DNA from: Balanoglossus misakiensis
Taxonomy: Eukaryota; Animalia; Hemichordata
Length of the DNA stretch: 64,000 bases
Direction of reading: 5' to 3'
Assembly: GCA_040954595.2 (NCBI GenBank)
Contig: CM082594.2
Coordinates: forward strand, 9,069,612-9,133,611
Made by a program: the position numbers and the translations under genes. The notes under the pieces were generated by a model. It was given only the letters and a program-made list of their open reading frames with translations. It made no database searches and was not told the origin of the DNA. Shown in pieces: positions 18,897-61,925 of the stretch; position 1 is the stretch's first letter; every line of letters begins with the position of its first letter.

Positions 18897-19222
18897 TTAG
18901 CTTTGAATGATGATTCGGCTGAATAGCCAGAAAGGACAAGCGAAGTTCAGCTAATGGTTGGAAAATTCCCCTGGTAATAACCCGATTTTCCAACTAATGC
19001 ACGAAATGTAGAAAGACTCGGTAAATTCGCGGTAGCGCGGTTGGCCGTCTGCACAGTGTATATGGGTTACTCCTGTCCGTCTCAGTGTCCGGTATGTTTG
19101 TGACTGGAACCCTGAACGGTAAAGTGCCTCTTATAAGTACAAGATACGCGAACGAGCATATTTAATCGCCACTGAACAAACACTCAGCTATTGGGTAACC
19201 ATGGCGCCGTTGCTATGGTTGC
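18897..19222 (-). promoter_or_regulatory. Candidate distal promoter and non-coding first exon (TATA plus tandem RFX X-box-like motifs), possibly of the RASL gene
   Basis: Minus-strand donor AAG|gtaagc at ~18896; TATAAG at ~19130-19136; gtaaccatggcgcc at 19195-19208 and gttgctatggttgc at 19209-19222. Confidence 0.3.
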
Positions 19223-22200
19223 GATACGAGGAGTTTGTCCTTCAGGAGCTTATACAAAGGGTCCGGTACGCCAAGCGTATAAAGGGCCGCACGTTAGAAA
19301 TTCCCAACGGAAGAAATCACGGGTTTCTTCCCGGAAGACCACGCCCCTCCGCGTAATTCATATTATATGTGAACATATTAAGTAATGCAGTAGATAATGA
19401 TTGAACCGAGATTAATATGCAAAGACCAGGTTTTACCGATTTATATAGAGCTATGACTAGTATTTCAATGCGCACGTGCAAAATGTAGAATTGTCTTTTC
19501 ATTTGAAAAGAAAATCACATGAAATGGCTTATCTGATCTCAAATTAAACATACAAGGAATGCATTTAGCGGTAAACAAACGGAGGTCACTGACACAACAG
19601 TTAGCAAAGTATGATCTACTGCTGTTTACGCGAGACCTAATCGTTTTATTGCGCATTCTCAAAATCCCCCACAACAAACCCCATACAATCAGAGGCAACG
19701 CCAGGCCGGACGATAAACTCCACCCGTTAAACTCAGATATGCAGAATTGCATCAAGTGAAACGATAGTGACGTGGCACAAGTATGTATTTCCTAAAACGG
19801 ACATACCAAGTCGACACTTGCATTCCTCGGAGTGCTATTCGCTGCCGAGTCACAGCTCTGAGAACGTGATTCGCGTTGAAACCAGTTCCGCTGCGACCAG
19901 GGTCCATATCAGTTATTAGGTCCGAACTAGAAATAGTCTGAACTGACAAAGAAAGCTGTAAAACTAACGGCTTGAAATGATGGGGCAGCCGCAAGATAGA
20001 AAACCACTGTGCATAGTTTAGCATGAAAACTTCTCATAAATGGCGAAGATATGATTGGAGCCAGCTTTTAGTTCGGCAAAAAAATTTCATGGCATACCCC
20101 AGAAATGAAATAAGGTTGTAAGGTATGGAGAACGATAAGAGAAAACTTCAGCGAATGCGTAATTATATCACTTGGCCAGAAATTCTCTCATACATGACCA
20201 TGCATGGAATGACCAATAAAAACTGTTCCCTCGGCCCTGTGAAACACTCTTCTATTTTAAGATGCAATGTATGAAAATGCGACAATGGAAATCTTCCGTT
20301 TTGATATTGCATGATAACCTGGTAGCTATGCATCAGCTTGTATCTTTAGCCAGATTTTTAAAGTTTCACCCTCAGCCCGGACTGTGCAGCCTGTCCTGAA
20401 TTGATCTGCTTATGCGCATACCATATGCATCAATTTCCAGATGTCCGCGTCCGAGTCAACCACCTGGGAATTTCATCACCTCCGCATTCACTATGAATTT
20501 GTCGACTGCAGTAATTGACGATTAAGTGATAATTATTGGTTCTTCCAAAGAGCTGGAGACAGTGTTATAATTTTGAAGAAACCCCCTTTTTGTGAAATAT
20601 GTCGTACGACTGCGAAATGGACAGCCGTCACGTGACCGGACAATTGACACCCATATTCCAATTAATAGTCCCCGATTTAGCGCCAGTGAGTTTTGAAGAT
20701 CCAAGCGGATCGTTGCGGAGAGACCCGCACATCATTGTCCCTCAAGCCAAATATTATGAGTACACTTTGTGTTACCGGTGCAATAACCGCGAGCCGGGCG
20801 TCGCAATTTCTAGACGGTATCACATGTTGCTGCCAATTTTCCTTAGCGAGTAATTGAAGGGCGTCAGTTCGACAATTTGAAGTATTTTGTGTTATGTAGC
20901 ATATCTACTTGTAGACTGCCAGGGATTTTTAAACTTTACCAGTTTACCCACCACAAATGCTGGGAGGGACTTCTATTATGATAACCGTATTGTTTCCATT
21001 TCTGATGACTTTTGTGTCGAGTTGTGCACTTGGCTGTTGTGTGCAGAGTTGGAATGTGAAGGGCGTTTCGCGTTACAATGAAGATCGACTTTCACAGCAT
21101 TGTGTCGTCAGAGTGCAAGTAAGCATCCTTGATATTGCGACCGAAGAATAAAAACCAAGAATCCAGAGCAATTGTCGAATGAATTGCCAGGAATTCCGAC
21201 CTTCTTCGCGGTGCCCCAACTGTAAATTGATCTTTTATTAGTCACAAACAAATTGTTGGCGAATCGGAGGCTTAATATTTGGGGACTGTGTCTTTGTCCC
21301 TCGCGTTTTTCCCCCATTTGATTAAAAATCGAAACCACGTTATGTGCAGTACTTACCCCAGAACACCCTATAATATTTTTCAGATATATTATTAGACTAA
21401 GTTTAAATATAGAAATGCACCAAGCTGTACCTGTCATTAATTTTATATTTAGAGCAGACGATTTACAAAACACTTTTAGCATCTGTCCAACTCTAAATGA
21501 TTCCCAACACGTATACTGTGTGATCGACTGTGTAAATCACTAATGGGCCTAGCAACTGTGGTCTTCATCCATTGACTTGTACATACTGCATGTCTGACTG
21601 ATGGATTTCTGAGAAGATTCGTGCGTCCTCGTGTTTCTATCTAGATTTAGACATATTTAAAATTAAGCTGGAATTTGCAAGCCAGTTGTTAGTTGCCTAT
21701 GAATTCTTGTCTGTCGTAAATGCGCAGTCGTATATGCGCCGTGACTGCGTGTGCGTGGTCCAAAATTGAGTTTCCGTCTTGTATAGGGTTGTAACAAGAG
21801 TGTTCGCACTTATTATATTGCTCTGTGGGGGTAATTTTGGCAATGTGGCGTAGCGCACGACCGTCTGGCCGTTTAACACTGAAGTGCTAAAAGCATTCAA
21901 TGCGTCCTGTCATGCCACGTGGTCCAGCTTTATTCGTGGTGTCCATGGAAAGCATGTGCGTGTTGCTCATAATATCTCAAGTTTCCGCTCATGAATGCTA
22001 TAGTTTTCATAATTCAGAGCACAATCAAAAATGGAAGAAACAAACTTTAACACAGTTGTGCCACGAATAATTCTGTCTCAGCGATGTTAGTGAACTTGGT
22101 TGTGGAATGGATTCTTTGTTGCTAGGCTTGTTGTTAGGAGCAGCAGATCGATCATGTTGGCCAACAGACAGGTGGTTACCGAGCCTCTCGGTTGGTTCAG

Positions 22201-23422
22201 GTTACACACTCCGTGGTGTTGACGTGAGTTGGTCTGACACGTGGAGAGGTTTGTGTCTGTGAGTGCCCAGATTCTTTTGTTAGTATCGTCTGAGAGTCTA
22301 CAGTAACGATTTCCAATCGACATGTCTCCAAAGTGAGAGTTTGGAGCAGACGATAGAGAAATTTTATCAGAGTCAGCGGTGTGAAGCGTATCGGCGATGT
22401 ATAGCACCCCCCCCCCCCCATGGGTGTTTTCGTACCACAGAAGTGACCCCCAATAGGAACTAACCCGTTTCGTGACATCTTTTATTGTTTGGTATGTTAA
22501 CTGCTGTACTAAGGAAAAACAATTTCACCATCCGAAGTTTCTTTCAAGTATCCATTTTGATTTACGATTTGCTCCCACAAATAAAAATTCTGCCGAGAGC
22601 AACGACTTCAAGTATGTTTCCTGCTGTAGAGATGAAATTTATAGTGTAATATTTTCCCGGGGAATTCCGAACTCGTTCACTAGGAAACCCGAAAGCGCGA
22701 GAGGCTCAAAAATGAGAAATCACTCAAACCACTCTTCAGGGTATCCGCTCTACTATAGCCGTACTCTGCATATAAAATGGTATTAGATGTTTGAAAACCG
22801 CAAACGTGTGTGTTTGAATAGCTAATGTGTACGCGTGACATTGTTAAGTGTTGATAGGATGCAAAACACATGGACATGCGCGTTGATCATGACGATAATA
22901 AAGTAGATATCTGATGAAAATGACATATGATGTCATTGGGATAGATCTTGGGTATTCCCCGATTATTGTCCATATTGTCATTTCGGCGAAAATTTGTATA
23001 ATTGTTTTTAATCGGTAATATTGACCTTCGCTATACTTGAACGTGACGTAACCGGAAGTAAAGAACCTCATTGGATATAAATTCCGGTTTATTTTACAAT
23101 TACTAGTACTTTTGCGGAAGAGGAGACATTTTTGCAAAAGATTACAGATTAGTTTTGGCAGCTCAATGTAATATTAAAGCTTGAATGCGGACTGACTCAT
23201 TCTTGCGGCACATTCTCAAACAATTCCACAGCTCAATCTCCGTGGTTACCTTTCAAGAATAAAGTGTTGAGTCATGTACATTATGTCGTTCAAAACAGTA
23301 ATGTAGATGTGATGTTTGTGTGATCAAAATGAAAAGAATGTAGGCTTTTCAGTCGGCGGGAAATGGACGGCGCTTGATCAAAGCTGGTCCTGAACTTTGA
23401 CCCCGGTTTGCCTGGTAACTCC

Positions 23423-23583
23423 CGGGTTGGAATTCAGACGCGAATTTCAAGATGTTTGTGCAATAATCAAAGCAAAGATACGGCGGTGAATGACCGAATA
23501 TCGATGGAAAGGTGTTCTCGGTTAGTATCCTTGCTTTGATTATTGCACAAACATCTTGAAATTCGCGTCTGAATTCCAATCCG
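23423..23583. repeat. Long inverted repeat (59-bp arms, 43-nt spacer): MITE-like or hairpin RNA
   Basis: 23423-23481 is the reverse complement of 23525-23583 with only 2 mismatches. Confidence 0.9.
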
Positions 23584-26500
23584 AGTCTCATCAGATTCGC
23601 TTAAGTTTTACTTTTAGCATATATGGCGCCTTGCCATATCGCCCTGCAAGCAGAATTATCTCTTTCAATTCATAAAAGCTATAACCGCTTTTATTCTCTG
23701 ATATCGGACACGAAAATAGAATCGGTAATGCATGGTTTGCAAAATGGTTCGAAGGATTTCTAGATAACACAGCTCTTAGTCATTCTATCGGTTATAGACT
23801 TTGATACTCGCAAGAAATTTAAAACTTTTTTCAATTACTCATCGCTTTCTCCGATGAAAACGAGATTTCGAACTAGTGTGGAGGCAATTTAAACCCTAAC
23901 CCAGACTTTTAAACGAAATAGATGGATAAACCAGGCAACTTTGACCAAGCACAACTGTATACCCAGCATAGACTGCAAACGATATAGTGCTTATGAAAAG
24001 GAAACACTTTTTCATATAATGTTTTACTCGGTCAGAATCATATAATGAGTTCTTATCTTGTTATAAGAACCCCTTATGTGTTTTTTTTTCTTGAGGCATC
24101 CCCTCAGAATAAAGTTCTTGTTTTCAGGTTGTCATTCCAAATCGATAACTATGATGGAAATCAGTGTTTTGAAACTTTCTGTTATCATGTTTACCGAACC
24201 GTGACGAGAAACACACAGTTAACTCTGTTTACACCCGAGTTACTCCATACGAGCGACCAACCTTGTCCCCTGAAAGGACAACGTCAATCATCGATGGAAT
24301 ACCACAAATGAAACTGGCCGTTGCAAAATCATAAACCGGGGATCTGAAAGTGTCTCTGTTCCCACGACCAAGAGAAATTTGCATGAAAGTAGTTCCATTC
24401 CCATTTCTCTCAGAAGCAAGTTAGGCGCTTGTGGTTCAATCTTGCTCGGGGTAATCAGCTGATAGTTAAGAAACCCCAAAGGGACCAGTGAAAGCGAATC
24501 TGCTATCAGCGTTATCGTAGAGATTAGCCAAAATCACGTGACTTAAATGTACTTTGCCCTACATCGGGAAGACCTGGATGTAAAATGCCTGATATTTTTT
24601 ATCTTCTTCGGTCGCGATATTCGTTCATAATGATGTTTTCTTCCGCTACGACTAAATAGTGGTGATTTCATTAGATGGCACGGGCAATAAACCGGAAGTG
24701 TCGCAAAAGGGCTTACGTGTACAACGAGGTCACTGATTGGCCAAACGTGCACCACACGACTGATAAAGCGCTGATACTGCCAATCGCGGAAGGCGTCCCA
24801 TTCCAAGGTTAAAAGCGCAAAAATCCGAATTCGAACAAAACATCCGCTCCTTCAAGTTGCGCAGAGATTTTATTATCAACTATGTACGTTTCGCAGAGAC
24901 AACGGAGAGAGCCAACAGGAAAGACTTTGATTGGAAATACAGAAAACTATCCGGAAGGTTTGCAGTAACAATCCCTCGTTCGTCACAACAAGTCTACCCC
25001 CTCCTATACTATTGTCATCTTATGTAAGCGGTCAATGCCCCAGGGCAGCTCTTTTTCATGGACGAAGGGCAACACTGCCCATAGTTATTTTCAATTGTAA
25101 ACAGATCAAAAATATACATCGATAACATTATGTGGTTTACTCTGACGTTATTATGACGTGCTTAAATTTAACTTTTGGGTATTTCTTACGAACCACTTTT
25201 CAGGGACCGTATCACCGGTGGTCATAATGTCATTATTTGAAAGTGCGCGAAAACTTGGCCGGTAGCAAGGCTAGAAATTTCATGAATAAGAGTCTTGTGG
25301 TCTCGAGCGGAGAAAGGCTATTCCATTTAATTAATGTTTACTTAAGGTAAACTACAGTTTCCTGAACCAGGTGTAATAAGTTGTTACTGGCCACCATCCA
25401 GTTTCAATGTGCATGATTCGTACTTGTCGATAGTACAGTAAATTGGACTCTCCATCCAGACACGGTGCTTTCCTTTTTAATTACTTAAAATTAAATCAAC
25501 TCTAGCACGATCATCATGAGTGTACATGTGTGGTGACATCGCGTTGTTCGAATATCTCTTCACTAGCTGCGCGTGGATTGATCGTGGTGGTCAGATGTTA
25601 GATTGTAGAATTCCCAAGTTACCTTGTTCTTCCCGTTCAACAGTTATAGGTTTCAATTGGAATTGGACCCCGTTCAGTGACCCCCCCCCCCCGCGCCGAT
25701 GTTCTTTTGTTTTTTCTTCCATTGTTCAGTCACGTTGCAGTGAAATCATAAGACACCTGCAGGGAGTTGAAGATACCGTAAATTTGATTTCTGATAAACT
25801 AAGTAAATACAAATACACCCCTGAGATTGTAAAAATGGTATCCTCTCAGGTTTTCGTATCCCGGTAACATGTTTCACCCTCGATAAGACAAATGAAATCG
25901 CCTGACAACCCCTGACAAATGGCCAGTCCAAAAATAACGTTCTTTTGTATGCTGCGGCTTTGCTACATATTTCAAGACTTCCCCTTTTGCACACTGGAGC
26001 CGGCAAAACGGTGTAGTATTTGCACAGATGAACATCGCCTAAAACACGGTTTGCCGCCAAACAGACATTGTCGCACGAACCCGGGAGCGACAAGTCCCCG
26101 AGGCCACAGTCCCAGATACGGTGTGTTTACAAAACCCTTTGTTCTTCAACATCTGTGTTGATTGTCAACACCGGCGGCTCAGATTAAAGACTTCGGTGCC
26201 CGTGAATGGCCGAGATAAAATTGGACGAAGTCGCTCTTTTCGGCATTATTTAGGCTATTTTGGTTCTTGCGAGAAGCAAATATGTTGCTCTGCTATTTGT
26301 TGTAGATACACGATGACTTGCAGGTCGTTAGAGCTATATTCTTCCCTGCTTGTACAACTACAATGATAAACACTCAAACGAAAAATAAATCAACGGTATA
26401 TACCGAAATCACTATCAAATTATCCACGTTTTGCCCATACAAAACCCCAGGGCGTAAGTAGAACCATACTGTATGTCGGATCGGATCGCATCATCTGAGT

Positions 26501-29500
26501 TTACTGTTCCAATCGCGCCACTTGCGTCATTCCATACCGCAATATTAGGCTCTTAATCGTCGAATCTCATCCGTTCCTAAATCGCAGATCTATCAGAGAT
26601 TACAGATTCAATTTTGGATGAGCCAGAATCACGTCACGTGGCCCGAACACACTTTTTGTTTAAACTGAAGGTAATGCGTACAGCGTCGTCGAATATGTGA
26701 AAGTCTTGACCCTATTTCAATTATCAAAAGGCAAATTAACTGTGACAATGCCAATCTTTTCTGCGACGCATGATCTCAATATATTACAAGCAGATAATTA
26801 TTGGTCCAGTTTATTCCCTTGTTCACACCTTTACACGTGACCTGGAAATGTTGCTATACCAGATGTCGTAATCTTGTCACTTGGAAACAAAAACAGGTGA
26901 TTGGACGAAAGTTCATTTCCTCGGTTTCAAAGAAACCAGCCAGGTGGAAAGGAAGCTTTCTTTGGTCGCTGGTAATTAAGATATCCCGCTGAATACCACT
27001 GTCAAAGAATGTCGCTGGACCATGATGAAAAACACACGTGGTAGCGTGGTCTCATTTCGGCTAAAACCGTATTCTCCTTGACGTACAATGGGTGATTAAA
27101 CTCCTTCAGCATGTCTCGAAGTATCTCTGAAATCAGAGTCCCTTCTGTCTGTCAACAGCTCGGGTTAGTTATTGTAGTGAACATATCGGGTCCTGACGAT
27201 AGATGCAATGTTGATTTGCTCTTGATCAGTCTGATCAACATTGATCAGAACGTTGGCCGTTGATTGATAAAATGAAACAGCTTTGCCCGAGATTCTATCG
27301 CTCTGATATGAATCAGTCTGACGATGGCCTGATTTCTTCGTGGAAGTGAAACTTTGATAAGATCATTTGACTGTGGTGGGTCGATTATTTTAGCACTGGC
27401 GCGCATGCCAGCGGTGGAGTGTTTGATAAATTTGGAATTGCTTTGCTGTGTCTGGATGACCCGTGATTGAGTGAGTTGTTGCAGACAGTAGCTCTGGTTG
27501 TCATTAGATGATCATTCTTGTTTAATCATGTTAGTCGTCAGCTGCCTTCACGTTTTGGGTGAGTTTGTTTGCTTGGCTGACGGCCTGGCTGGCTATGTGG
27601 GTGGGTGATAATTATGGTGCCCAGGTAGACAGACTGACTATAAATATGCTTGTTTGTTGGTCAGCCGGTCGATCGATGATTTATCGATTGATTGATCGAT
27701 TTCATTTCGTTTGTAAGTTAGTTTTGTGATTAAGAAAATGCATGTTGGTCAAATGCAGTGGCTTGTGAGTTGAGGCGACAGCTGTTTTGTTTTACCTTGA
27801 AGACCAGCTGAACTCTCTTTTTATAGCTAGGATCTCTCAGTTTGGCGTGTCTACTGTCAGGTCTGATGATTGATTGCAAATGGCTGCAAGTCGGTTGTTC
27901 TGTTCATACTGTACAACCCCCCCCCCCCTTCAATTTCTTGATTTAATGAACAAGTTATCCACAAAAGTGGTGATGAAATGGTAGCATAATATAAGACGTA
28001 ATATAAGACGTGAGACAAAGTCATTTCCATTTTTATATAAAATTCAAATCTTACAAGTAACCATGTGTTATGTTAGCTTACCAGTGCAAACGAGCTTACC
28101 AAACAATCCCTGACCCCAGAAATAAAAGAGAACGCGCTCCATGTCATATTTGTCAAGTGTCTATACATTCGAGAGTTTAAATATCACTTCTCAAATGCGT
28201 TTTATGACTTCTCCACATCCAATTCTGCAATAACAATTCAAACACCAACCAGGTCAACCAAATAACTAAAAACCAGACAAAGCAAATAATTTTCAAGTGT
28301 CCCATTTCTTTGACAAATATTTGGCTCTCTCTCCTGAGTTTACCAGGGAGTTGGTTGACCGGTACAGAATGCTAAACACGTCAACCCTCGGCAAACTTTT
28401 CGAAGAAGGTATTTTTGCATCGGGAGATTCGTGTACAGCATTTAATTAGTCTTTTTACACGGTTGCTCCGTGACGTCATCGATTATAGACGGATATTTCC
28501 AAGAGCGTTTGTCAGTTCTCATTTCATGTACATGTATATAACGAGTCTGCAATCAAGTTGGCAACTTCACTGCATATCTCAGCATTTTTTCAAACCCAGT
28601 TCGGGCGATTTGACCACATTACCATATACCAGTGCAGCACTGTGTTTACACGTAAACTACAAGCAAAACTCCATTCAAGTAACGGAACACAAAGTAAACA
28701 AACTACAAGTATGCGCATGTCCACAAACTGTATTCTCAGGCCAAGATGTGTCGTCAGTAAATCCGTGGCTTATTTGCGCATCACATCGCCTCCCCCCCCC
28801 CCCCCCCCCACAAAATTAATGATAAGCGTGGTTGGCCACTAACAAAAACAGTGTCTCATCTACTTTGTCATGGTTACACATGGTTAGACGCACCTGGATT
28901 TCGCGCAGCATGCACTGAGCATTCCAACATGCGCAGAAAGGGCCCAGCTGTTTGTTTATATTTATGGAAATCAGTTTTCTTGTTGATTGTTTTTTTCTGG
29001 CGTTTAACACATTACTGCGTGTCTACTTTGCATAAAGCAGCTTGTTGACAACATAAAACCAGGACCGTTGTTTTTCTAATTATACAAGATTTTCTGCATG
29101 TTCAAGGGTGTCGCAGATTATTATCTAATCAGTTTAAGGAGGGTCACTCTTCAGCAACCTTGACTTTTATGTTAACAATAATCTTCGAACCACTTGTTTT
29201 CTGAAGTACTCCACGAAGAATCAGATCTACTGTTCGGCCACTTGACCGTGGTGTAAACAGAGACCTTTATCAGGCACCGTCATTACGGCCAATAAAGTCA
29301 CACTGAAGGTCGATAGATAAATCTACCGCAAAGGGCGTTTGGGAACTCAACAAGTCGGATGATATTAATTAACTATAAGGACACCCTCATCGCGGGGAGC
29401 CGTGGAAGGAACTAAATATTTTGATAAAGTTGGTTCTTGGCCAAGGTTGTTGACCATCGTACAACTGTGAATGTGCGTCCGCTGCCCAGGGTGGCTTCTG

Positions 29501-32500
29501 TTCGGAGAAAATGTTTGATGAGTCGAGGGTGCCGGAGAGAAAGTTGGCGTTGAGTTGGGCTTTGCCTGTGGGCTTCCTGTTTGAACTTCTCTTCCATGGA
29601 TTGCATTGCTAGAAAATAACAAACATTGAGAATAAAGACTGAGCCATGCGGAACCCACGCTCGGTGACACATTCACCTGTGACTTTACTGATAAATACGC
29701 AGCAAAACGTGTACGCAGCAAAACGTGTTTTCGACGCCCAAACATCGACACTGGAAGCAAAACAAGGATGTTTGCAAGCCTCACAAAAACGAACAAGTCA
29801 TGCCAACTATAGCCGTGCCACCTACAGACACGAAGACTCTGTCGGCCTCTTTGATATCGAGTTGAAGAAGGTGATTTTAAAGACGGAGCGTGAGAGTGAC
29901 GCTGTCGTCAAACGGCCAATTCAGACGAAATCATTTCGATTGGTCATAAAATAGTCCCATTTCTTTCAGTCATTTGGATTTTCTACATCACTCCGTTGTC
30001 AAAGGAAAGGAGATTTTTGTTACTCGACAGCGACGAGAACTGTTAAAGGCCAAAAGATCAGCTGATTCTCGTCTTGGACAACTTGTAAACATGGCACGTG
30101 CGTCATTGAATCTGATGAAATACGGTCTTAGGGGAGACAAACTATGTCTGATGACCAAAAGCTCCCAGACTTTACTGTTCATACATTTGTTTAAAGAATG
30201 GCGTTCCTCCACTGCGATTCACGAGATTTGGCATCGACTTTTAAATCTGATAATTCATGTGTTCAATACGACAGAAAAAAAATCCAAGTCTCTCGTCAAG
30301 ATAAATTAATTTGACCTGGCATATCGGAGTTGGTATAGAATAAGTAGTATAATATAAACATATTAACAGCCACAAAAAGTCTCACTATCATTCTACCACT
30401 ATATTAATGCCATGACATAAACTAGTGTACACATGGCAACATCCTGTGCTGTATGACAGTGCATCTTGCAGCTGTGAATGTCAATGCCATCTGTGACGTC
30501 ACGTTGTTTGACCTTGCCGAACTTATCTCCAAGTAATGTCACAGCGTACGCTCTATCACTCTTAAAAGCTGGCGATAAAAAAAAGAACTATCGCCGAAAG
30601 CAAAGTGTGGATGATTTCCTATTTGACTCACACTTGAGTAAATCGATCATTTTCTGCTACTGTTCTTATTATTTCCCATGATGCAGTTTCGGATGTGCGC
30701 AAAATGATATCACTTATGGAATTTGGGATCAACAAAAGATTAGTACGAACAGAGTGTGCTACGAAAAGTGTTATGACGTTATGAAATGTGATTTGTTTTC
30801 TATTGGGATTTATTTGAGCCAAACAGCCATATTAGGTGTTGAACAAAGATTTTATATTTGCTTTCCGGACACAAACTGTCGTACACTACTGCATAGCATA
30901 ACTGTCAGTCATCACAGGTAGTTGTATGTCAACACTCAAGGTATAACTCACTCCATAAGTAGGCAATAATGCTTCAGTCAACACATTAGTGATAAGCGTG
31001 TTATCAGACCCACAACTCCTGTCAACAAATACAAAACCTGTCGTGGGGTTGACGTCCATATCGCGCATGTGTAGAAGTCTCAAGTAGCACTCGAGCAAAT
31101 ACATGTACTGCGCACTTGTAGAACCCGCCTGAATTCTGTCTGATTTTACTCCCGGATAATAATCTTTGTTCAGTAAAGCGCCCGTTCATTGCGGAAAAAA
31201 CACGCGAGGCCTGCCAAAAATAAGAGTTTTGACAGGATCGTGTTGCGTCCTGTTTGTTTTCAGTGCGAGGGTGTTGAGCACCAACGCGACCTTTGACCTC
31301 TGGGGCTTTAGTGTTGTTTTTGGCGACTGTTTTTACTCCAGTTTCCGCGCCAATTCATCATGATCTTATCACTTTGATATTTACCTTTTCAATCCATTTA
31401 CAACCGAATGTGTGTTTTTGGAGAAAAAAACATGGTGAGGCTGCATTTCGTCGGTTCGTGTACTCTGCGTGACCCAATCTAGGCACATGTGACCATTTGA
31501 CATTCTTTGGCTGCCCCCCCCCCCCCCCACATAATAATATTCACACCTGCGCGAGCATGATACCAGAATCTGAATTTCGGTAACGGTAAATTATGACCAG
31601 ATATACTCTATCAATATTAAGTTTGGTTCTTTTCCAGGCATACCACAACGGTGAGACAAAAATCTTTGGAATGCACACGACAGACACGTTTTAACATTCC
31701 TCAAGAATGTTCCATCTTTAATCCGATTGCCTCGATCGCACGTGAGATTCGCTATCTCGTCACGTACACACGCCAGTGTCCCCCAAATTCTTTTTTGGCC
31801 GATAGCTCGATACCCTTGCCCGATTAACTGACACGGGCGGACATTACTCATAATGTAAGATACTCTTTGGTAGTTTTCGAGAAATATTACTATATAAGTA
31901 TGCAAACAATCCTCTTGGGGGAAAAGAGTACGTGTATGTCGCGTGACAGTTCAGTTTCATTATGAAAGGGGTGTATCATGCATGACAGATTTCATCCTAT
32001 ATAATTCACGTGATCATTTCTAGAGTTACACGTGTCAAAATCATGTCATTCCCAAAAGATCGATAAAGCCGAACAAATACTGATGAACCCTACTTTTCCA
32101 AAATCGACAAAAATGTACATTTTTTTCTAAATGGTCTTATGTTTTATACTAGCTCCGTGTCAGAATTAGACATTGAATCATGACGTCACAGATCTGGCCA
32201 GGTGCCTGTCAAGATAGGTGGCTTCTGCTGTCACATTCCGACAACTACTTGAGATAATTTGTGTTGTTCTTGAAGCGACTTTCTAATTACTCCACCCATT
32301 TTTAGCCAAGATAAGCAGCCTAGAGGTAGCTAGATACTTATCATGGAGTGTACTGATTGACAAGCTTGAGTTCACTGTAGATGTTGGTGGGTATTTCAGG
32401 TATTTCCAGGGCATCTTAGTCTTGTCGCCATGTCAACATCGGACACCTCAGTCTTTAGGCAGAAGCGTTTTAACGTAAAGAGGTCTCAGCTATAACGATC

Positions 32501-34391
32501 CAGTGCCTCCATGACCATGATTTCGGACATGGGTTTTGTAACCTCAGACCTCGCATATTTTTGCGTCGCGTGCTAATTTGGGTAACACCTGTCATTTATC
32601 ACGGCTTGACATTGTCTGTTGCGGACAGTGTAGGCCGTGTTTGTGGACAGTAAGTGTAAACAAACGACACGCAACTTAACAAATGCACTGGAATAGCACA
32701 AATACGATTCATGGACATCTCCGGGGGTAGCGTCAACAGTCTTATCTTAATGACCAAGAAGATGCCACGGGGTTCTCAGCGCCCAGGTATTCAGCATTTT
32801 TGCCCTGATCCTGTCTCCTTCAAACGGAGGACATTTCCAACTGACAGAAATGAAAACATTTGGCAGTAAATTTGGTCGATTGTTCCGAGGTTGCAATTAG
32901 TGTCAAGGCTATGCCTGCCCAATTTGACCGAGGCAATGTTGCAACGTGGCAACCAAACCAGGTACAAACTGGGACAAAAGCGATTTCTTTTGGATATGGC
33001 CAAAAACTGTCTGATCAGCTGTTTCATTCACCAATCAGTTAGTCATTGTCAAGACATATGCCTTTGGCAATATGTACACCCACGATACAGTTGGATCGGC
33101 CATTACCGATAAAGACCGGCGTGCAGTTCTGCTTATAATTATTCAGTTGTAGCGCCCCCATACGAAGGCACGGAGAAGCCGAATATTTGTAGTTCAATAG
33201 ATGGGTCTAGTCGGTCTCTCTAAGGTATAAATAACTTCCAACTTTTAATTGTCATGTTGAAGATTACGGACAGTCCTGAATAGTACAGATTTGCTACATG
33301 ATATACTTAAAAGTAATCCGAGTTCAGAGCTGAGCCGACGCTGTTTTTTAAGCCCTGGTGTAAACAGTTGCGGGGCATCGGTCACTTTTCAAAGGTGTTG
33401 TCCGATGCACCTGGGTTTACCTTTCGCCCTGGCTGTACAAGCTTACACGGCTACCTTAAACACGTCGGCCCGTTTCATGGATATGTACAAGTTTAAGAAC
33501 CATGTTTGCTTTCTGGCCAACATGTGGTGTGCATATGTCCTAGGGGGAGTTTGATTGATCTTTGACCGACACAAACATCAACTACACAGTCTTCAAAACT
33601 GGGCGATTAACTGTGCTTTTTAACACCTTAGATTCAAAACATGAAAGATATATAGAACAGATTAATTAAAGAGTTGGGGCGCTTTCAGTAACTGTTTACT
33701 GTTTTCTGAACTAAGCACATACAAGGATTAGTATGTCAAGGTATTTTGACTGGTATTTCTCTAACGGCCAGCTATGGTTACCATACCAATAACATCTAGG
33801 CCTATATGGTGATGCTAGACGAAAATAAAATCAGAAGGGACATGCTTATTTTGCCACTGGTGGCGCTATTTCCAATAACGGTGTTCCAGTCAACCAAGAC
33901 CGATTTCAAACATCACGGAAAATGTTATGGAAAATGAAATCAATTACATATTATTGGATCCTGGCCTCTTAATGTACTTGTTTTTCTCATTGGCGCAATC
34001 AAACTACGTGATTAATTCACTTTCCAGTTCAAAATAACTTTATTCGACAAGAGTTTGTATGATTGTGCGAATGTTTAACAATGAGAAAGATTACAAAATA
34101 TATAGTTTCTCCTTCCACCGTGAAAACCTTACTGTTTCAATAGCATGTGAATTTAAACTTGTTAAGTAGATGTAGTATGTCTCCCTAAATGACGAGATAC
34201 TTCATATAAATAGTAAAAGACATCTAGACTTCATGATAAAATGTGGAAATTGAGACGCCACCAATAATACTAAGGGGTTAAGTAATCCAATTGAAACAAA
34301 AATCACAACAAAAAGACCTATAGGAATGTTATACGATTTACAACAATTTCGACTTTATAACAACAACTTCATTCAGTTTCAAATTATTGTT

Positions 34392-37300
34392 TCAAAAACG
34401 AAATCTCTGACGTTGGTCGAAATAATTCTGCTGTTCATCCAAATAAGACTCTTCATCTGTCTGTTGCAACCGGTCCCTGGTACGGTCGATCACTACCTTT
34501 GCAAGAAAGCGTTGCAGGCTGGGAGGTAGAATCCTTGACAAGATACTGGCGTCCCCTTCTCTTGGATCTGAAAACGAAGCAGAGGATAAATACGAGTGAA
34601 ACTGTGGCGAAGGGTTGAACCCGAAACGTCGTGCTTTTTCAGTATCCGCCTATAACTGGCGTTTTATTCCCACTTGTCGGTCAATATGGTTTTATTTGAA
34701 CGACTTTGCAGTTTTAACCTTTGCTTGCAAGATTTCTAACTCTCGTGACAGCCTCAGTTTGTTTTATCTGAAAACGTGTGAGCGTAAATACACCCTCAGC
34801 AGTTGTATACCTTCCCTGAGCTGACACACACCCCCACACACAATATTCAATATTCGACCTGTATAAATATTTGACACCTGCAAATTAACTGCACACCGCT
34901 GTCGGTTGTCAATCGCACCTGATCCAGTGTAAGAGCTGACGAAGAACTTTCGGCTTAATATGCAAATGATATTCAAATGTGACCGAGGAAGTGTGTCAGG
35001 AAGCGACGGGTCTGATGAAAAGGGTTGTCGGGGCAACCACCAAGATAAGATGTCGGTTCCCAGACTGAGCAGTCAAATTCTTTCTAACGAGGATGTCAAT
35101 TGACCATCTTTTTCTTCGTGTCATCTGATTGTCTCTGCTCGAGTTTGAAATTATATTCACTTAGACACAGGAATCTATAGTAAAAGTCTATCAAGTTCAT
35201 ACTTTGCCATTTTCTATTTAAAAGGTACATGAGCCAAATCGAAAAAAAAAATCAATTCATACAAACCTCACAATTTCTAAGATCGTTTATTGTACATAAT
35301 AATGACACGGATAGTATTGACCGTGCTACGTGTATCATCGTGAAGCTGCCAATACAAATGTCTAAACAGGAAGCTGATAGGGTTAATGTTTAGAGTCATC
35401 GATAAAGTACCTTGCTGCGAGGTAAGAGCTGTTGTATGTGGTGTTGCTAATTTTGGTCTAGGCATGGACCCTGTTAATAGACAGTATTGATAATTCTATC
35501 GATTGCAGTCTGAACAATTTTAGCTGAAATGTCACAGACATAGTCTCGTGTCAAGAAGCTCCCTCTCCCCCCAGTCCCCCTCTCTAACTGACGTTTCATC
35601 ATATAAGAACTAAAATTTCCAGACAAATGTTGATTTTCATTTCATCGGAGAATACTTCTATAGTAATAAGCTGAATGATCAGCCGCGGACTCAAATGTCA
35701 AAGGTTTATGACTGATAGTATTTGCGATCAAACCTCAAGTCTGACACATGTAAAGTCGATGTTTGGTCGCCATAAAATCGACCACATGAACTTAATTGAA
35801 CATTTTCAATAACGTCTGTTGTCCATAGGACTTAGATTGTTGTACCATGAAGAGATATAGTTTCTGTTAGACAACATACATTCTCCCAAGATGCACTGTA
35901 ATATACTCTTGTGAAACGTCAGAATTAGGCGTCTGCTGATATTGCATGACCAAGGGCATGTTGGTCGCATTGGGGTTTCATGACAGATTTCACAATTTGA
36001 AGGATATGACTAATTGTGCTATGTGAAATTGACTGATTTGACACCAGCCATTATTATTATTATTTTCATCAAAAGGTTACCCGAAATTGATGGGGTCAAA
36101 ATTTGCATTCTAAACCAAAGCTTATCCAAATAACAATTATGTTTCTTGAAATTACACTAGAATTATTGAATTGAATCATATATCTTTTCTGGCATATTTT
36201 GTTTAACTGTTCCATTTTGTTACTATGGGGAATTGTGTTTTATTCCAATAATAATTAAAAAATGGAAAATTGCCCTTTGTCAAATGATGCAAATGATCAC
36301 TACTCCTGCGAGAGATCGTAATTGGTTGCCAGAAGCAGACGCATGGATCGAAATAAAATCATTTTTCACAAAACGTAAGACGTACAACTTATAAATGACA
36401 CCCCGGTTATGACTATTAACATGAGAATTATTCCATCAACTTGTCAAGGATTAGTTGACCTATTGTTGATGGAATTTCAGCGGTTGCAATAATTGGATCT
36501 GTTTTACCGCAGCAATATACTACACCACACCACATATCACACTAAGCAGTACCATGTTACCACGTGTTTGTTTTAGACACGGGAAAAGGTCTAAACGGAA
36601 GTGGCAGCGAGAAGTGACTTAACGACGTGGCCTGAAGTGTGATTATTCTCTGTAGGTTGGTGTTAGCACCATTTGCCGTCGGCGTCAATTAAGATAATAG
36701 TTAGACTTCAAGCAAGTGATCTGTTAAATTGTTAAGTATAGCCTGAAGGATCCTAGCAATATGTGGGAGTTGTAATGGTACGTATCAGTATAAATCTGAG
36801 AGATATTTTGGACGTTTATTAATATTAAAAGATAACAAAACGCCCCAAAATGACAACGATCCAATTTCACGGACAGTTTTGGCTTTCTCGTGAATGCTTC
36901 CAACGCATTGAACATATCAGTCAAACATTTCTGCCACTGCCTAAATCATTACATATATTTCAAGAAGGACAACCTTGCCTTCATTTTGATTTACCTGCCA
37001 CGGGATATTAATGTCCGTCCAGTTATTAAAAGGTGTGTTGCAGCGTTATCGATGTCATTTCCGTTGGTAATATGTAATTGATCCCACCAAGAAACAAATA
37101 ATTTTTCGTATGTCTTACGAAACTGTCATTTTGCCATGAGATTCTGTATTTATTCTCACGGTGAAGTGTCAGTGAAATAATGAATCGGTTTTCTTATGTA
37201 TTCATATATAAACTTATTTGGTGGTGAATCTATTGCGAAACGAGCGGAGATTTGCTAAACGCAATAAGACAAAAATGTCATCATCATTTATGTTTTATTG

Positions 37301-37439
37301 TCCTACCTTGGGATCGTTTGCCTGGTCGCCTGCCGCACCATTTGGACCAGAAATCAAGACAAGGCAAGCCCATGTCCGCCGAGACAGAGGCACAGACGCA
37401 ACAACAAAGCACCAGTAAGATTAAAGTTGATCTGTGCAT
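34392..37439 (-). CDS. Putative neuropeptide/peptide-hormone precursor (102 aa, 2 coding exons)
   Basis: Exon 37439-37307 reads MHRSTLILLVLCCCVCASVSA-DMGLPCLDFWSKWCGRRPGKR-SQ and ends at donor AAG|gtagga (phase 1). It joins acceptor ttttcag| at 34567, giving DPREGDASILSRILPPSLQRFLAKVVIDRTRDRLQQTDEESYLDEQQNYFDQRQRFRF* (stop 34392-34394). Features: hydrophobic signal peptide ending V-S-A, two Cys, G-KR amidation/cleavage site, AATAAA at ~34044-34039. Confidence 0.75.
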
Positions 37440-37795
37440 AGTGTCCAAGTGAAATATCTGCAGAGAAATACGTAGACCCTGTGAAAACAAATAAAATGTG
37501 GAATAAGAACAAATAGGATATACATGTAAAACTAACTAAAACTTATTCAGTGAAAGACCCCAAATGCGAAATGTTCACACTATGGATGTCAACATCTTTA
37601 ATTGTTCAATTTAGCGTATATTTAGTCGTTTTAATTTCAAAAGTTTGCTGTTTTTCTGTATCACATTTTAGTGCAGTACAATGTACCATCTAAATTACTC
37701 AAGTCTCAGAACAGTCGGAAGACTTGTCAATTCCTCGATTTAAGAAATGATGCAACTGCAAATAAAAAAGTGCTGAATAATGCATAAGAACTTAC

Positions 37796-38003
37796 CCTCT
37801 TCCAATAATCGGATAAAGTTATAGAATGTCGACCACAGTCTCAAATTCGATGCGCCGTCCCCTGTCGGTCTTTCTTCTGTAACGGTTTTATGTTCAAATC
37901 CCTGTTCTTATAATGTCTGCGTGGTCGTTGTCCAAGTAGTGAAAGTGGGCAAGACGTCACAGTTCACGTGACCTGTGTGTCTTCCTACGTCTTTGCTGAT
38001 TGG
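37796..38003 (-). promoter_or_regulatory. Promoter and non-coding exon 1 of the neuropeptide precursor gene
   Basis: Donor AGG|gtaagt at 37795 and acceptor ttttcacag| at 37479, upstream of the ATG. TATAAG at 37912-37907, CRE-like TGACGTCT at 37959-37952, E-box TCACGTGA at 37964-37971, CCAAT at 38003-37999. Confidence 0.6.
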
Positions 38004-42923: not shown

Positions 42924-45453
42924 TTATGAAGATTCATAATTGATCACTCCATTGCTATGCGGTCGCTCTGGTTTTCTACATACAAAGAAGACGCAAGAAT
43001 ATTCATATTTCAACATATTCTTCTGGTTCTGTGTGTATGTGGATAAGACTCTTTGATTCTCCTCCTGTAAAGATAGAAACATTGACAATTATTGGAGTTA
43101 ACCATTGCTCCACTTGAATAAAGATTCCTTATAAACATGCACACATCCTGAAATATATACTTTACTGACATGTATACTTTGGAGTCAAAATACAATAAAA
43201 CTTTGACTCAGTCTCGATAACTTGTTGCCATAAATGATGCAGTAGGATGTGTTGTTTATTGATACTAACCAGAATCTCAAACCCAACATCTTTGACGATT
43301 CTCTTGACAACATCGTAACTCAACTCAAGTGATGATGCAGTAGGGACATCAGCAAAATGGTATAACAGAGGACCTGTAATAAACAACAACATACTATAAG
43401 ATTTGTCCATTAACTCATGGAAAAACAGAAATGTCTGTGTCTGTTACGAAAGGGTGAAATGTTGAACAATGTCACTTAGGCATCATGAAAGTTACTACCA
43501 CTAAGATAAAGCTCACTACTTACCTAAATTAATCCAGTATCCACCAGGCTTGAGTATTTTATAAATTGCTTCAATATAAGATATGATGTTGTGTCCTGTA
43601 TCTATGAAATAGCAAGTAGCCACACAGTTCCAGCTCTCTGTAATATAGAGCAATTATTTTACTCACAGATTCTCAGAGATTGTTTGACTATAAGCTCACT
43701 CTGATTATATATAACAGCCAATAAGTGAAACCTTACCCGGATCAGTGTAGACTTCCAAGAAATCTCCGGCTGCCATGGAGAACATGGCTGATTGTGGAAG
43801 TGTTGTTGGATCCACATCTGGAATATGTACTGGCCGGATTTGGTCTTCCTTCGTTCTGTTGTTGCAGAAGTTGTGCACCCATGGATAGATGGTTAAATAA
43901 TTCACCCCAGATGACCTTGAAAATAATGAGAATAACAACACATGGGTTAGATTGGTGCTGATATGCACAATTGGTCTTTTTCGCCAGCAAGCAACTAATT
44001 GTGAGAGACATTGAACATACCTGTTTAGGATAAAATTTGATGCAAAAAGCATATAGAGACTAATCTCGTTGCCTTGACAAGCGTAGCCCTTGCTAGCTAT
44101 TTCGTAGGCCAGCCTACCAAGTCCTGCACCAGGCACCAAAACACTAACTTCACTTGTATCACTGAAATAGACAAAGAAAAAAAAAATACTTTATGGATTA
44201 ATGAACCAAACGGGAAGAAGTATGATCAGGTATACACACCTTATACCACAATGGTTTGGTCCTAATCCATTTGTTTCAATGGTAAAGTTGGACCTCTATA
44301 CAGAGAAATGGGGGTGAAACAATGACTATTGAAAGCATGTCCCTCCTTACCACTGGTCAGCTGGAAATAGTGTGCATATCTTCTCAACGATTGGAGTGTA
44401 ACACTGGTCTCTTTCCATGCAGCCTTCTTCGGACCAATCTCTTACGCACTGCCTCAAGACTGTCTTGACTTTGTCCATGTCAAAGCCGCTAACTGGTACG
44501 GCTTGGTCTGAATCCTGCAGTAGATACCGGGTAAACCAGTGATATTGTCAGTCTAATAGTGGAGAGAAGTTTGAGATTTGACGTCAATTTTGTCAAGGTG
44601 AAGTGGGCAACATGCATGTACAGTTCAACCTGTGACTTTTGTCATGAGAAGTCTGTCCTTAATAGAGAGGAGTCCTGCTTAGAGAAGGGGTCCATAATGG
44701 CAGGTTTCACTGTATCAGAGAATGGAAATACTTTGATAACAACCAGTTTTCTGAAAGTCTGTTCTTACCACGTATACTGTTGCCTCTCCATGATTTTTAT
44801 TTTCAAACATGTCCTCAGCTCCCTCTATCATCACTTTAAAAACTTCATAATTGTGATCCATGCAGGTCCGTATTTTCCCCAGTTGTGGCAAGAAGTCAGG
44901 CAACATCTTCCGATGCCTGTCTGGAAGTTGCTGGAAATCTGTAAGCGATTTATTGACTCGCTCTGTGGCATATTTTCTAGCGTTTTTTAAAAGAGAAAAA
45001 ACAAGAGAGACTTCATAAAGTTCCATGATTTGGTAGACTTCCAATCATCATTGAGAAGACAATGTATCAAGAGTGACAGCCTGTTAGCCTGCGATCTAAC
45101 ACAGTTGTGTGAGTTTAGACAGGATGTCATAGTAGAAATGATAACCGTGAAGTTCTCTATGCATCATGATGACTCTCAAGTTTGGCAGAAAACGGTGAAA
45201 ACTTATGGACAGTGCTGACTGGAAATCTACATGTAACAGCATGCAACTTACACATACCAACCGATCGTCGAGTAACAAAACATACTTGTAGAATATCCCT
45301 GCCTAATCAATCGAGATGCAAAACTTTCCTACCCTTAAGTATAACTTAAGATGCTTACTTGTAGTATCTGAAGGCTCGCAAAACTTTCTGAAAATGCTCT
45401 CTTTCAAGTCTTTCTTCGTCGGTGTTTAGTATTTCACTTCCGCAGTGCGCCAT
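42924..45453 (-). CDS. CARNMT1: Carnosine N-methyltransferase (N2227-like family), 8 coding exons
   Basis: Approximate exons: 45453-45359 ([32 protein letters not shown]), 44976-44778, 44514-44351 ([31 protein letters not shown]), 44161-44021 ([29 protein letters not shown] motif I), 43915-43737 ([11 protein letters not shown]...[12 protein letters not shown]), 43638-43524 ([11 protein letters not shown]...PGGYWINLG), 43373-43270 (PLLYHF...LELSY), 43064-42924 ([16 protein letters not shown]...ESS*). Confidence 0.93.

Positions 45454-54687: not shown

Positions 54688-61925
<7,238 letters not shown>

What the first reader, a model, noticed from the sequence alone, without database searches (positions are those of the whole stretch)
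34392..38003. Hidden neuropeptide gene encoding a Trp-rich, disulfide-bridged, amidated peptide (DMGLPCLDFWSKWCGRRP-amide)
Seen: a complete 3-exon gene that the ORF track does not show as a whole. It has a TATA/CRE/E-box/CCAAT promoter, a non-coding exon 1, an exon 2 with a ~21-aa signal peptide immediately followed by DMGLPCLDFWSKWCGRRP-G-KR, a 2.7-kb phase-1 intron, an exon 3 with an acidic associated peptide, and AATAAA. Known: G-KR is the prohormone convertase plus PAM amidation signal, and a peptide directly after the signal peptide is the layout of vasopressin/oxytocin and GnRH/corazonin precursors. Inference: the mature product is either an 18-mer ending RRP-amide, or a 14-mer ending WC-amide if G-RR is cleaved, with a C-x7-C ring. 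The FWSK core loosely recalls the somatostatin/urotensin-II FWK pharmacophore, but those peptides lie at the precursor C-terminus. WS..G.RPG loosely recalls GnRH. I do not recognise it as any described family, so it may define an undescribed peptide-GPCR signalling system.
Basis: partly seen in the sequence, partly recalled or inferred. Interest (0 to 1): 0.85.

Follow-up and report, generated by a model that had tools for sequence, protein, structure and literature searches.

The report
Acorn worm ring-shaped neuropeptide gene
An acorn worm gene, also present as an uncharacterized gene in the acorn worm Saccoglossus kowalevskii, encodes a small precursor predicted to release one ring-shaped, tryptophan-rich signalling peptide that is likely kin to the CCHamide-like neuropeptides of brittle stars, which would give a candidate partner for acorn worm receptors that still lack one.

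Summary
The gene is real. Two coding exons join in frame across a 2,739-nt phase-1 intron into a 102-residue precursor. The window is from an acorn worm close to Ptychodera flava. A search of 1.84 billion proteins found two true relatives: uncharacterized S. kowalevskii XP_002734917.1 and an unnamed 103-residue protein. Conservation centres on the peptide: 11 of 16 core residues are identical in all three, against 7 of 60 in the tail. No Pfam family, solved structure or paper names it. By eye, the best match is brittle-star CCHamide-like 1: peptide right after the signal, same seven-residue ring, K-aromatic-C, and P-G-KR in register; the family's histidine is missing, and the ring also partly recalls MCH. 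Verdict: a neuropeptide or hormone precursor (about 0.9), likely a divergent CCHamide/excitatory-peptide-type ligand (0.45) or a separate acorn-worm family (0.3). Expression, processing and receptor are untested.

The parts
37999..38003 (-). CCAAT motif (common in the window; weak evidence)
37965..37970 (-). E-box CACGTG
37952..37959 (-). CRE-like site, 7 of 8 bases of the palindrome
37907..37912 (-). TATA-like TATAAG
37796..37885 (-). predicted non-coding exon 1 (start inferred from the TATA-like site; GTAAG donor follows)
   Evidence: no RNA data
37479..37795 (-). intron 1, 317 nt, in the predicted 5' UTR
37307..37478 (-). exon 2: end of 5' UTR, signal peptide, peptide, cleavage site, two further codons
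37377..37439 (-). predicted signal peptide, residues 1-21; V-x-small residue before the cut in all three homologs
37323..37376 (-). predicted mature peptide DMGLPCLDFWSKWCGRRP, residues 22-39
37335..37361 (-). Cys27-x7-Cys35, the predicted disulfide ring; conserved pattern C-[LV]-D-[FY]-W-[SA]-K-W-C
37314..37322 (-). G-K-R amide donor and dibasic site (G not adjacent to KR in the two homologs)
34568..37306 (-). intron 2, 2,739 nt, phase 1, two codons after the K-R site
34392..34567 (-). exon 3 coding part: associated peptide with a predicted amphipathic helix and an acidic patch; stop at 34394-34392
34039..34044 (-). first AATAAA after the stop, 348 nt downstream (weak evidence)

Best explanation
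[quoted passage not shown] Shown: the reading frame, the splice signals, the peptide directly behind a hydrophobic leader, two homologs, and conservation centred on the ring. Inferred steps: signal peptidase frees the N-terminus at Asp22; Cys27 and Cys35 pair; a prohormone convertase cuts at Lys41-Arg42; carboxypeptidase trimming and PAM turn Gly40 into an amide, giving the 18-mer in this species, while the homologs would end as free acids or be cut elsewhere; the ring residues D-[FY]-W-x-K-W are the likely receptor-binding face because they, and not the C-terminus, are what is conserved. By analogy with EP, CCHamide and starfish bombesin it would act on gut or body-wall muscle and feeding. 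I put the secreted signalling peptide reading at about 0.9 and the family and receptor assignment at about half of that.
For: Homologs P0002 (S. kowalevskii, uncharacterized) and P0003; 11 of 16 core positions identical in all three, against 5 of 21 in the signal and 7 of 60 in the tail. Exon 3 is the best of 12 good acceptors in 23 kb by similarity to the homolog tails, and the top three of all 563 candidates are in its frame. Atlas neighbours of P0002 are almost all neuropeptide precursors with an N-terminal peptide: corazonin, GnRH and CCHamide tie at 0.89 (under 0.9, a lead only). Brittle-star CCHamide-like 1 peptides follow the signal directly and read C-x5-K-F-C-x3-P-G-K-R in 3 of 3 species shown; the window reads C-x5-K-W-C-x3-P-G-K-R, the only such match in 127,996 six-frame residues, and 340 of 200,000 shuffles with Cys and G-K-R fixed match it. 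Of 14 spiralian EP precursors listed, 13 have Trp four residues after the first Cys as here, 7 have four residues then G-KR after the second Cys as here, and their tails have a Leu/Ile-rich stretch followed by an acidic one, as the homologs do (by eye; helix predicted at 49-73 of P0002). Receptors of this group exist in S. kowalevskii and have no known ligand.
Against: The comparison with published precursors is by eye and post hoc; no score or tree was computed. The histidine found in all 14 EP rings and before the final Pro in 3 of 3 brittle-star peptides is absent in 3 of 3 sequences here; of 11 positions invariant in the brittle-star peptides the window matches 7, has Trp for Phe at one and misses 3. 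Neither homolog fits the strict or the loose CCHamide/EP pattern. Ring size is not fixed in np25 (four residues in starfish). The sea cucumber np25 gene has 3 coding exons, this gene 2. Pfam gives no family at E up to 10. The ring also partly fits MCH, which shows how easily short cyclic peptides give partial matches. Window tail against homolog tails is not significant alone (243 and 382 of 2,000 shuffles reach the score), and a profile of the two tails did not rank exon 3 in its top 8 of 2,200 segments. No annotated relative was found from P. flava or G. talaboti (2 hits among 118 candidates) although both proteomes are in that collection.
Confidence: 0.45

Rival explanations
1. A separate, so far undescribed acorn-worm neuropeptide family with its own receptor; resemblances to known cyclic peptides are chance or convergence. 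The conserved product may be the 13-14-residue ring peptide ending in Trp-Cys-amide, cut at Gly-Arg-Arg/Lys.
For: No hit outside two sequences in 1.84 billion representatives or with a profile; no Pfam, PDB or fold match; G-L-P-C, D, two Trp and G-R-[RK] are invariant here but absent from the brittle-star and EP peptides; G-R-[RK] is better conserved than the distal site.
Against: Ring size, K-aromatic-C and P-G-K-R register all coincide with CCHamide-like 1. Single-sequence searches do not reach across phyla for short peptides, so the empty result is weak. Pro follows the Arg-Arg in 2 of 3 sequences, which normally blocks convertase cleavage (recalled knowledge).
Confidence: 0.3
2. A relative of the MCH / somatostatin / urotensin II group whose ring sits at the precursor's N-terminus, acting on a receptor of that group; hemichordate somatostatin-type receptors also lack a known ligand.
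For: Invertebrate MCH has Met/Ile then D-W or D-V after the first Cys and a basic residue two before the second Cys; here Leu/Val, D-F or D-Y, and Lys two before the second Cys. F-W-x-K recalls F-W-K. S. kowalevskii has somatostatin/allatostatin-C-type receptors without an identified precursor.
Against: All these peptides lie at the precursor C-terminus behind a dibasic site; here the peptide is N-terminal in 3 of 3. W and K are not adjacent in 3 of 3. The shared phase-0 intron in the pro-region is absent. An MCH precursor is already reported for S. kowalevskii.
Confidence: 0.12
3. A defensive peptide (antimicrobial or mucus toxin) released from epidermal glands.
For: Two Trp, two Cys and basic residues are common in such peptides (general knowledge); tissue of expression is unknown.
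Against: The mature peptide is the most conserved part across distant acorn worms, no second copy lies in the window, and its net charge is only about +1 to +2; defensive peptides usually vary fastest in the mature part and come in families (general knowledge).
Confidence: 0.05
4. A cyclised GnRH/corazonin-type peptide.
For: Peptide directly after the signal, P-G before K-R, non-coding first exon; Atlas lists corazonin and GnRH clusters at 0.89.
Against: No N-terminal Gln, no GWxP or WxxG-amide motif (features); two Cys; S. kowalevskii GnRH-type precursor already listed under another record; Pfam GnRH and corazonin models do not hit.
Confidence: 0.03
5. The gene model is wrong (exon 3 misjoined or the locus silent), or the motif is a thioredoxin fragment.
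For: No RNA evidence here; tail similarity weak; thioredoxins match the D-F-W-x-x-W-C-G stretch at E 0.05 to 3.
Against: Length (102 vs 102 and 103), frame and acceptor rank support exon 3; P0003 is an unbroken 103-residue frame on a 1,301-base contig, most simply a spliced transcript (inference); the C-G-x-C active site and the rest of the thioredoxin fold are missing.
Confidence: 0.05

Closest known systems
Saccoglossus kowalevskii uncharacterized protein LOC100370850 (XP_002734917.1; P0002) and unnamed P0003
   Same: Same length (102-103), same Cys positions 27 and 35, core G-L-P-C-x-D-[FY]-W-x-K-W-C-G-R, K-R site 6-11 residues after the ring, Leu-rich helix then acidic patch in the tail.
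   Different: No Gly directly before K-R, so no predicted RRP-amide; no N-terminal Asp; tails only about 17-18% identical to the window's. No function is annotated.
Echinoderm CCHamide-like 1 / np25 (Zandawala 2017, PMC5627052; Semmens 2016, PMC4772807; sea cucumber Ajnp25, PMC6586643)
   Same: Single cyclic peptide right after the signal; in brittle stars a seven-residue ring ending K-aromatic-C and then three residues and P-G-K-R, as in the window.
   Different: Brittle-star peptides have Pro before the Lys and F-x-H after the ring, and no Trp or Asp; starfish Arn25 has a four-residue ring; three coding exons in sea cucumber. I saw no report of a receptor for np25, so its own CCHamide label rests on resemblance.
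Spiralian excitatory peptide (EP/GGNG) and arthropod CCHamide
   Same: Peptide after the signal, one ring, Trp four residues after the first Cys (13 of 14 listed), four or five residues then G-KR, Leu/Ile-rich then acidic tail.
   Different: Ring of eight residues in 13 of 14 (seven here), His in all 14 rings, G-N-amide end.
Bombesin / GRP / neuromedin B type, including starfish ArBN (Huang 2025, PMC12002301)
   Same: Peptide after a 21-residue signal in a 102-residue precursor; by eye a short tail stretch of the starfish precursor resembles window residues 58-68.
   Different: No Cys ring in BN-type peptides; PRxN and RIFGPxx-amide motifs absent here; BN genes have a phase-1 intron inside the peptide and a phase-0 intron in the tail, here one phase-1 intron after the K-R site.
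Ambulacrarian MCH-type peptides and somatostatin/urotensin II-related peptides
   Same: One ring with aliphatic-Asp-aromatic after the first Cys and a basic residue two before the second (MCH); Trp and Lys in the ring.
   Different: C-terminal position, larger ring (MCH), adjacent W-K and a phase-0 pro-region intron (somatostatin group) are all missing.

Membership tests
CCHamide/EP-type incl. echinoderm CCHamide-like 1 | Single peptide copy directly after the signal peptide, followed by a dibasic site | tested here: met
   3 of 3 sequences; definition
CCHamide/EP-type incl. echinoderm CCHamide-like 1 | Two cysteines able to form one ring | tested here: met
   Cys27 and Cys35 in 3 of 3; the bond itself is inferred, and the low-confidence model does not show it
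CCHamide/EP-type incl. echinoderm CCHamide-like 1 | C-terminal amide four (or five) residues after the second Cys | tested here: inconclusive
   Met in the window, not in P0002 or P0003
CCHamide/EP-type incl. echinoderm CCHamide-like 1 | Conserved histidine (in the EP ring; before the final Pro in brittle-star CCHamide-like 1; C-terminal in CCHamide) | tested here: not met
   No His in the peptide of the window or P0002; none in ring or matching position in P0003
Echinoderm CCHamide-like 1 (brittle-star form) | C-x5-K-aromatic-C-x3-P-G-K-R register | tested here: inconclusive
   Full match in the window; ring part in 3 of 3; tail part not in the homologs
CCHamide/EP-type incl. echinoderm CCHamide-like 1 | Whole-precursor clustering or phylogeny with the family | not tested
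   Compared by eye only; Pfam no hit; Atlas CCHamide cluster ties with GnRH and corazonin at 0.89
CCHamide/EP-type incl. echinoderm CCHamide-like 1 | Shared intron position and phase | tested here: inconclusive
   Ajnp25 has 3 coding exons, this gene 2; positions were in a figure I could not see
CCHamide/EP-type incl. echinoderm CCHamide-like 1 | Activation of a CCHamide/EP/BN/ET-group receptor | not testable with these tools
   Needs a cell assay
Bombesin/GRP/NMB-type | Phase-1 intron inside the peptide and phase-0 intron in the tail | tested here: not met
   Definition; here one phase-1 intron two codons after K-R
Bombesin/GRP/NMB-type | Linear amidated peptide with PRxN and GxLM-amide or RIFGPxx-amide | tested here: not met
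Somatostatin/urotensin II-related | Adjacent W-K in the ring | tested here: not met
   W-S-K or W-A-K in 3 of 3; definition
Somatostatin/urotensin II-related | Single copy at the precursor C-terminus; phase-0 intron in the pro-region | tested here: not met
MCH-type | Met/Ile then D-W/D-V after first Cys; basic residue two before second Cys | tested here: inconclusive
   Leu/Val, D-F/D-Y and Lys: similar, not identical
MCH-type | Peptide at the precursor C-terminus after a dibasic site | tested here: not met
GnRH/corazonin-type | N-terminal Gln (GnRH), GWxP or WxxG-amide motif, no ring | tested here: not met
Vasopressin/oxytocin-type | Neurophysin domain after the peptide | tested here: not met
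   No Cys after residue 35 in 3 of 3; definition
Elevenin (L11) | Eight-residue ring ending F-A-P-x-C, non-amidated tail | tested here: not met
   Three phoronid examples seen; the homologs share only the non-amidated tail

The most novel reading that the evidence does not exclude
The founding member of an undescribed neuropeptide family kept across both main acorn worm lineages, with a D-[FY]-W-x-K-W ring as pharmacophore and a receptor from a still-orphan GPCR clade; amidation was gained or lost within the family. Nearly as bold: it is the cyclic ligand of the orphan S. kowalevskii bombesin-type receptors, a living intermediate that ties ringed CCHamide/EP peptides to linear bombesin/GRP.
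Probability: 0.3. Interest if true: 0.7.

Novelty: new variant of a known kind. Interest (0 to 1): 0.5.

Why it matters
The hemichordate neuropeptide set is known to be incomplete, and two papers name receptor groups in S. kowalevskii with no ligand: bombesin-type and somatostatin/allatostatin-C-type; starfish also have ten orphan bombesin-receptor relatives. This gene gives one short, synthesizable peptide, with a RefSeq record in a laboratory species, that can be put on those receptors. A hit would fill a gap in the history of the CCHamide / EP / bombesin / endothelin group, which includes human GRP, neuromedin B and endothelin receptors; a miss would point to a new ligand-receptor pair. The layout itself (signal, one cyclic peptide, dibasic site, helical tail) is ordinary for neuropeptides.

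Tried and rejected
No genome is held for the window, so paralogs and synteny beyond 64 kb were not examined. No RNA holder was listed (no evidence either way). Word-index search with exon 2 among longer proteins: 2 candidates, none scored. Exact look-ups of three window translations: not in the collection. Three of the five phmmer hits (P0001, P0004, P0005) are long repetitive proteins with 5 to 8 weak stretches and were dropped. Thioredoxin matches in the PDB are a chance match to D-F-W-x-x-W-C-G. The one metagenome match to a degenerate DNA pattern of the ring lies two codons after a stop with no leader and was rejected. AlphaFold2 on three sequences gave mean pLDDT 59, pTM 0.25, and draws the ring region as helix at low confidence; Foldseek found nothing. 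Pfam on 150 of 151 reading frames of 50 residues or more between 22,000 and 44,000 found only two CARNMT1 exons, so no receptor or other known gene flanks it; Rfam found nothing. The cone-snail-derived DREP families (parts 1-2 of 8 read) have 40-71-residue peptides or other layouts and do not fit. Synteny with the S. kowalevskii gene could not be tested: its CARNMT1 was not among the 120 listed of 392 hits. Earlier scan findings by sequence, words and nearby place: nothing.
Full report
Observation. On the minus strand an ATG at 37439 opens a frame that runs to a GTAGG donor after 37307; joined to the acceptor before 34567 it continues in frame to TGA at 34394-34392, giving 309 nt and 102 residues. 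The intron is 2,739 nt and phase 1, and falls two codons after the Lys-Arg site; a 317-nt intron with a GTAAG donor lies in the predicted 5' UTR, which has no ATG. Residues 1-21 are a hydrophobic leader ending V-S-A, and DMGLPCLDFWSKWCGRRP-G-KR follows at once. The promoter evidence is modest: TATAAG, a 7-of-8 CRE and CCAAT are each common in the window; only the E-box plus CRE plus TATAA cluster is unique (0 of 100 simulated windows), and I wrote that pattern after seeing it. The first AATAAA is 348 nt past the stop, at a background of about one per kb per strand. The tail has 11 acidic and 10 basic residues of 60, so it has an acidic patch but is not acidic overall.

Organism. The upstream neighbour is carnosine N-methyltransferase. 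Its best single-domain hits are from Ptychodera flava and Glandiceps talaboti (the top row is a 638-residue rotifer protein at only 45% identity, which I set aside as a probable sum of two matches). Exon-wise identity is 77% to P. flava, 64% to G. talaboti and 51-60% to 16 other animals; in a 19-row tree the window groups with P. flava (95/90) inside a hemichordate clade (100/99). The window is therefore from an acorn worm near P. flava. Four earlier notes on this genome say the same; they are not independent support for the peptide.

Relatives. phmmer of the 44 exon-2 residues against 1.84 billion representatives gave 5 hits at E up to 0.001, of which 3 are long repetitive proteins and 2 are short precursors: P0002, the uncharacterized S. 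kowalevskii protein XP_002734917.1 (102 residues), and P0003, unnamed, 103 residues on a 1,301-base contig. A profile of the three found only the same two among 118 candidates; no annotated protein of P. flava or G. talaboti appeared, which is unexplained (missed annotation, divergence or loss). All three have V-x-small residue before the peptide and cysteines at 27 and 35. Identity in all three is 11 of 16 in the core (residues 22-37), 5 of 21 in the signal, 0 of 5 in residues 38-42 and 7 of 60 in the tail. This is the usual neuropeptide pattern (described). S. kowalevskii is a harrimaniid (recalled), and harrimaniids form one of the two main acorn worm clades (abstract), so the core is old within the class. 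An unbroken frame on a short contig makes P0003 most simply a spliced transcript; that is inference.

Is exon 3 right? The window tail is only weakly like the homolog tails (243 and 382 of 2,000 shuffles reach the local score), and a two-sequence profile did not place it in the top 8 of 2,200 segments. But among 563 in-phase AG sites in the next 23 kb the top three by global score are in this exon's frame, and among the 12 with a good pyrimidine tract it ranks first by both scores; it also restores the homologs' length. I take it as likely, not shown.

Processing. In every case the ring is the conserved part and the likely receptor-binding face.

Comparison with known families. Pfam, PDB sequence search and Foldseek name nothing; thioredoxin hits are a short chance match. 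The Atlas puts P0002 next to corazonin, GnRH and CCHamide precursors at 0.89, a tie below the 0.9 bar. Somatostatin and urotensin II need adjacent W-K, a C-terminal peptide and a phase-0 pro-region intron: none is met. MCH-type peptides share aliphatic-Asp-aromatic after the first Cys and a basic residue two before the second, but lie at the C-terminus and are already known in S. kowalevskii. Bombesin-type genes have the phase-1 intron inside the peptide: not met. The closest layout is echinoderm CCHamide-like 1 (np25): in 3 of 3 brittle stars shown the peptide follows the signal and reads C-x5-K-F-C-x3-P-G-K-R, and the window reads C-x5-K-W-C-x3-P-G-K-R; 340 of 200,000 shuffles with the cysteines and G-K-R fixed give that pattern. 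Spiralian EP precursors add Trp four residues after the first Cys in 13 of 14 and a Leu/Ile-rich then acidic tail, as predicted for P0002 (helix 49-73). Against: the family's His is missing, the homologs do not fit the pattern past the ring, the starfish np25 ring has four residues, the sea cucumber gene has three coding exons, the test was chosen after seeing the match and several families were looked at, and the comparison of whole precursors was by eye with no score. So it works like a CCHamide/EP-type precursor; membership is not shown.

Mechanism and odds. Secreted signalling peptide, about 0.9. Within that: divergent CCHamide/EP-group ligand 0.45, separate family 0.3, MCH/somatostatin-group ligand 0.12, GnRH-type 0.03. 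Defensive peptide 0.05, wrong model 0.05. If the first holds, the receptor candidates are the two S. kowalevskii bombesin-type receptors, whose ligand precursor is stated to be unidentified, or relatives of the starfish orphans ArBNR2-11; EP is myo-excitatory on gut tissue (abstract) and starfish bombesin contracts stomach and tube feet, hence the guess of a role in feeding and muscle.

Is it in print? Full-text searches of about 8.1 million PMC papers and 0.36 million preprints for four window motifs gave one irrelevant paper and for the accession, locus number and three S. kowalevskii motifs none. Supplement searches of PMC10508912, PMC6188537, PMC8557429 and PMC5627052 found none of the motifs; in the places shown, the S. 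kowalevskii entries of PMC8557429 were receptors, so that blank is weak. Topic searches listed no paper on it by title or abstract start. Not seen: Mirabeau and Joly 2013 (not held), Jekely 2013, the closed Supplemental Table 7 of bioRxiv 2026.04.13.718258, figures of all papers, PMC6617912 and PMC12969411 (listing and abstract start only), and subscription journals. Any of these could list the S. kowalevskii precursor.

What I saw of each paper. PMC12002301: passages, sections 7, 17, 19, supplement passages and part 5. PMC5627052: passages, section 7, supplement passages. PMC4772807: passages, sections 12, 43, 44. PMC8557429: passages, supplement parts 11 and 12 and passages. PMC8851493: passages, first part of section 5. 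PMC9048919, PMC10508912, PMC6188537, PMC5818035, PMC13554239, PMC11521371, PMC6422423, bioRxiv 2026.04.13.718258: passages. PMC6586643: passages and section 38. bioRxiv 2022.08.05.502922: parts 1-2 of 8.

Verdict. A real, unnamed acorn worm peptide precursor, most likely a divergent variant of a known kind, that makes a stated open question about orphan hemichordate receptors testable with one synthetic peptide. Interest 0.5.

Noticed in passing
window 42927-45453, minus strand: Eight-exon carnosine N-methyltransferase gene ending 4.9 kb upstream of the peptide gene's promoter; 77% identical to the P. flava protein.
   Followed up: yes
window 9711-12101, plus strand: A 796-codon intron-free frame with two BTB matches, BACK and kelch repeats; the doubled BTB and lack of introns suggest a retrocopy or a lineage-specific kelch expansion.
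   Followed up: no
window 13718-16100, minus strand: Ras-family small GTPase gene, RERG/RASL-like by eye (Pfam Ras; P-loop exon near 16040).
   Followed up: no
window 966-7294, minus strand: Exons of a receptor tyrosine kinase with a kinase match, an IPT-like exon with an RRRR site and a P-P-[ST]-N-V-T mucin-like repeat exon; MET/RON-like by eye.
   Followed up: no
window 57548-61992, minus strand: Exons of a CELF-type RNA-binding protein (RRM; CELF3-6-like from recall). From recall only, human CELF4/CELF6, CARNMT1 and RASL12 lie in the same paralogous chromosome set as GRP and NMB; if this holds it would be weak linkage support for the CCHamide/bombesin-group reading. Not tested.
   Followed up: no
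window 34502-34534 (residues 58-68), minus strand: The predicted tail helix resembles by eye residues 67-78 of the starfish bombesin-type precursor shown (four identities and four similar residues in twelve); the two homologs fit less well.
   Followed up: partly
window 14300-34300: About 20 kb downstream of the peptide gene with no Pfam match in the frames scanned from 22,000 on and one 70-nt inverted repeat at 23412-23594, 90% complementary, possibly a small transposon relic.
   Followed up: no
window 37392-37406, minus strand: The signal peptide holds four cysteines (residues 12, 13, 14, 16) that the homologs lack.
   Followed up: no
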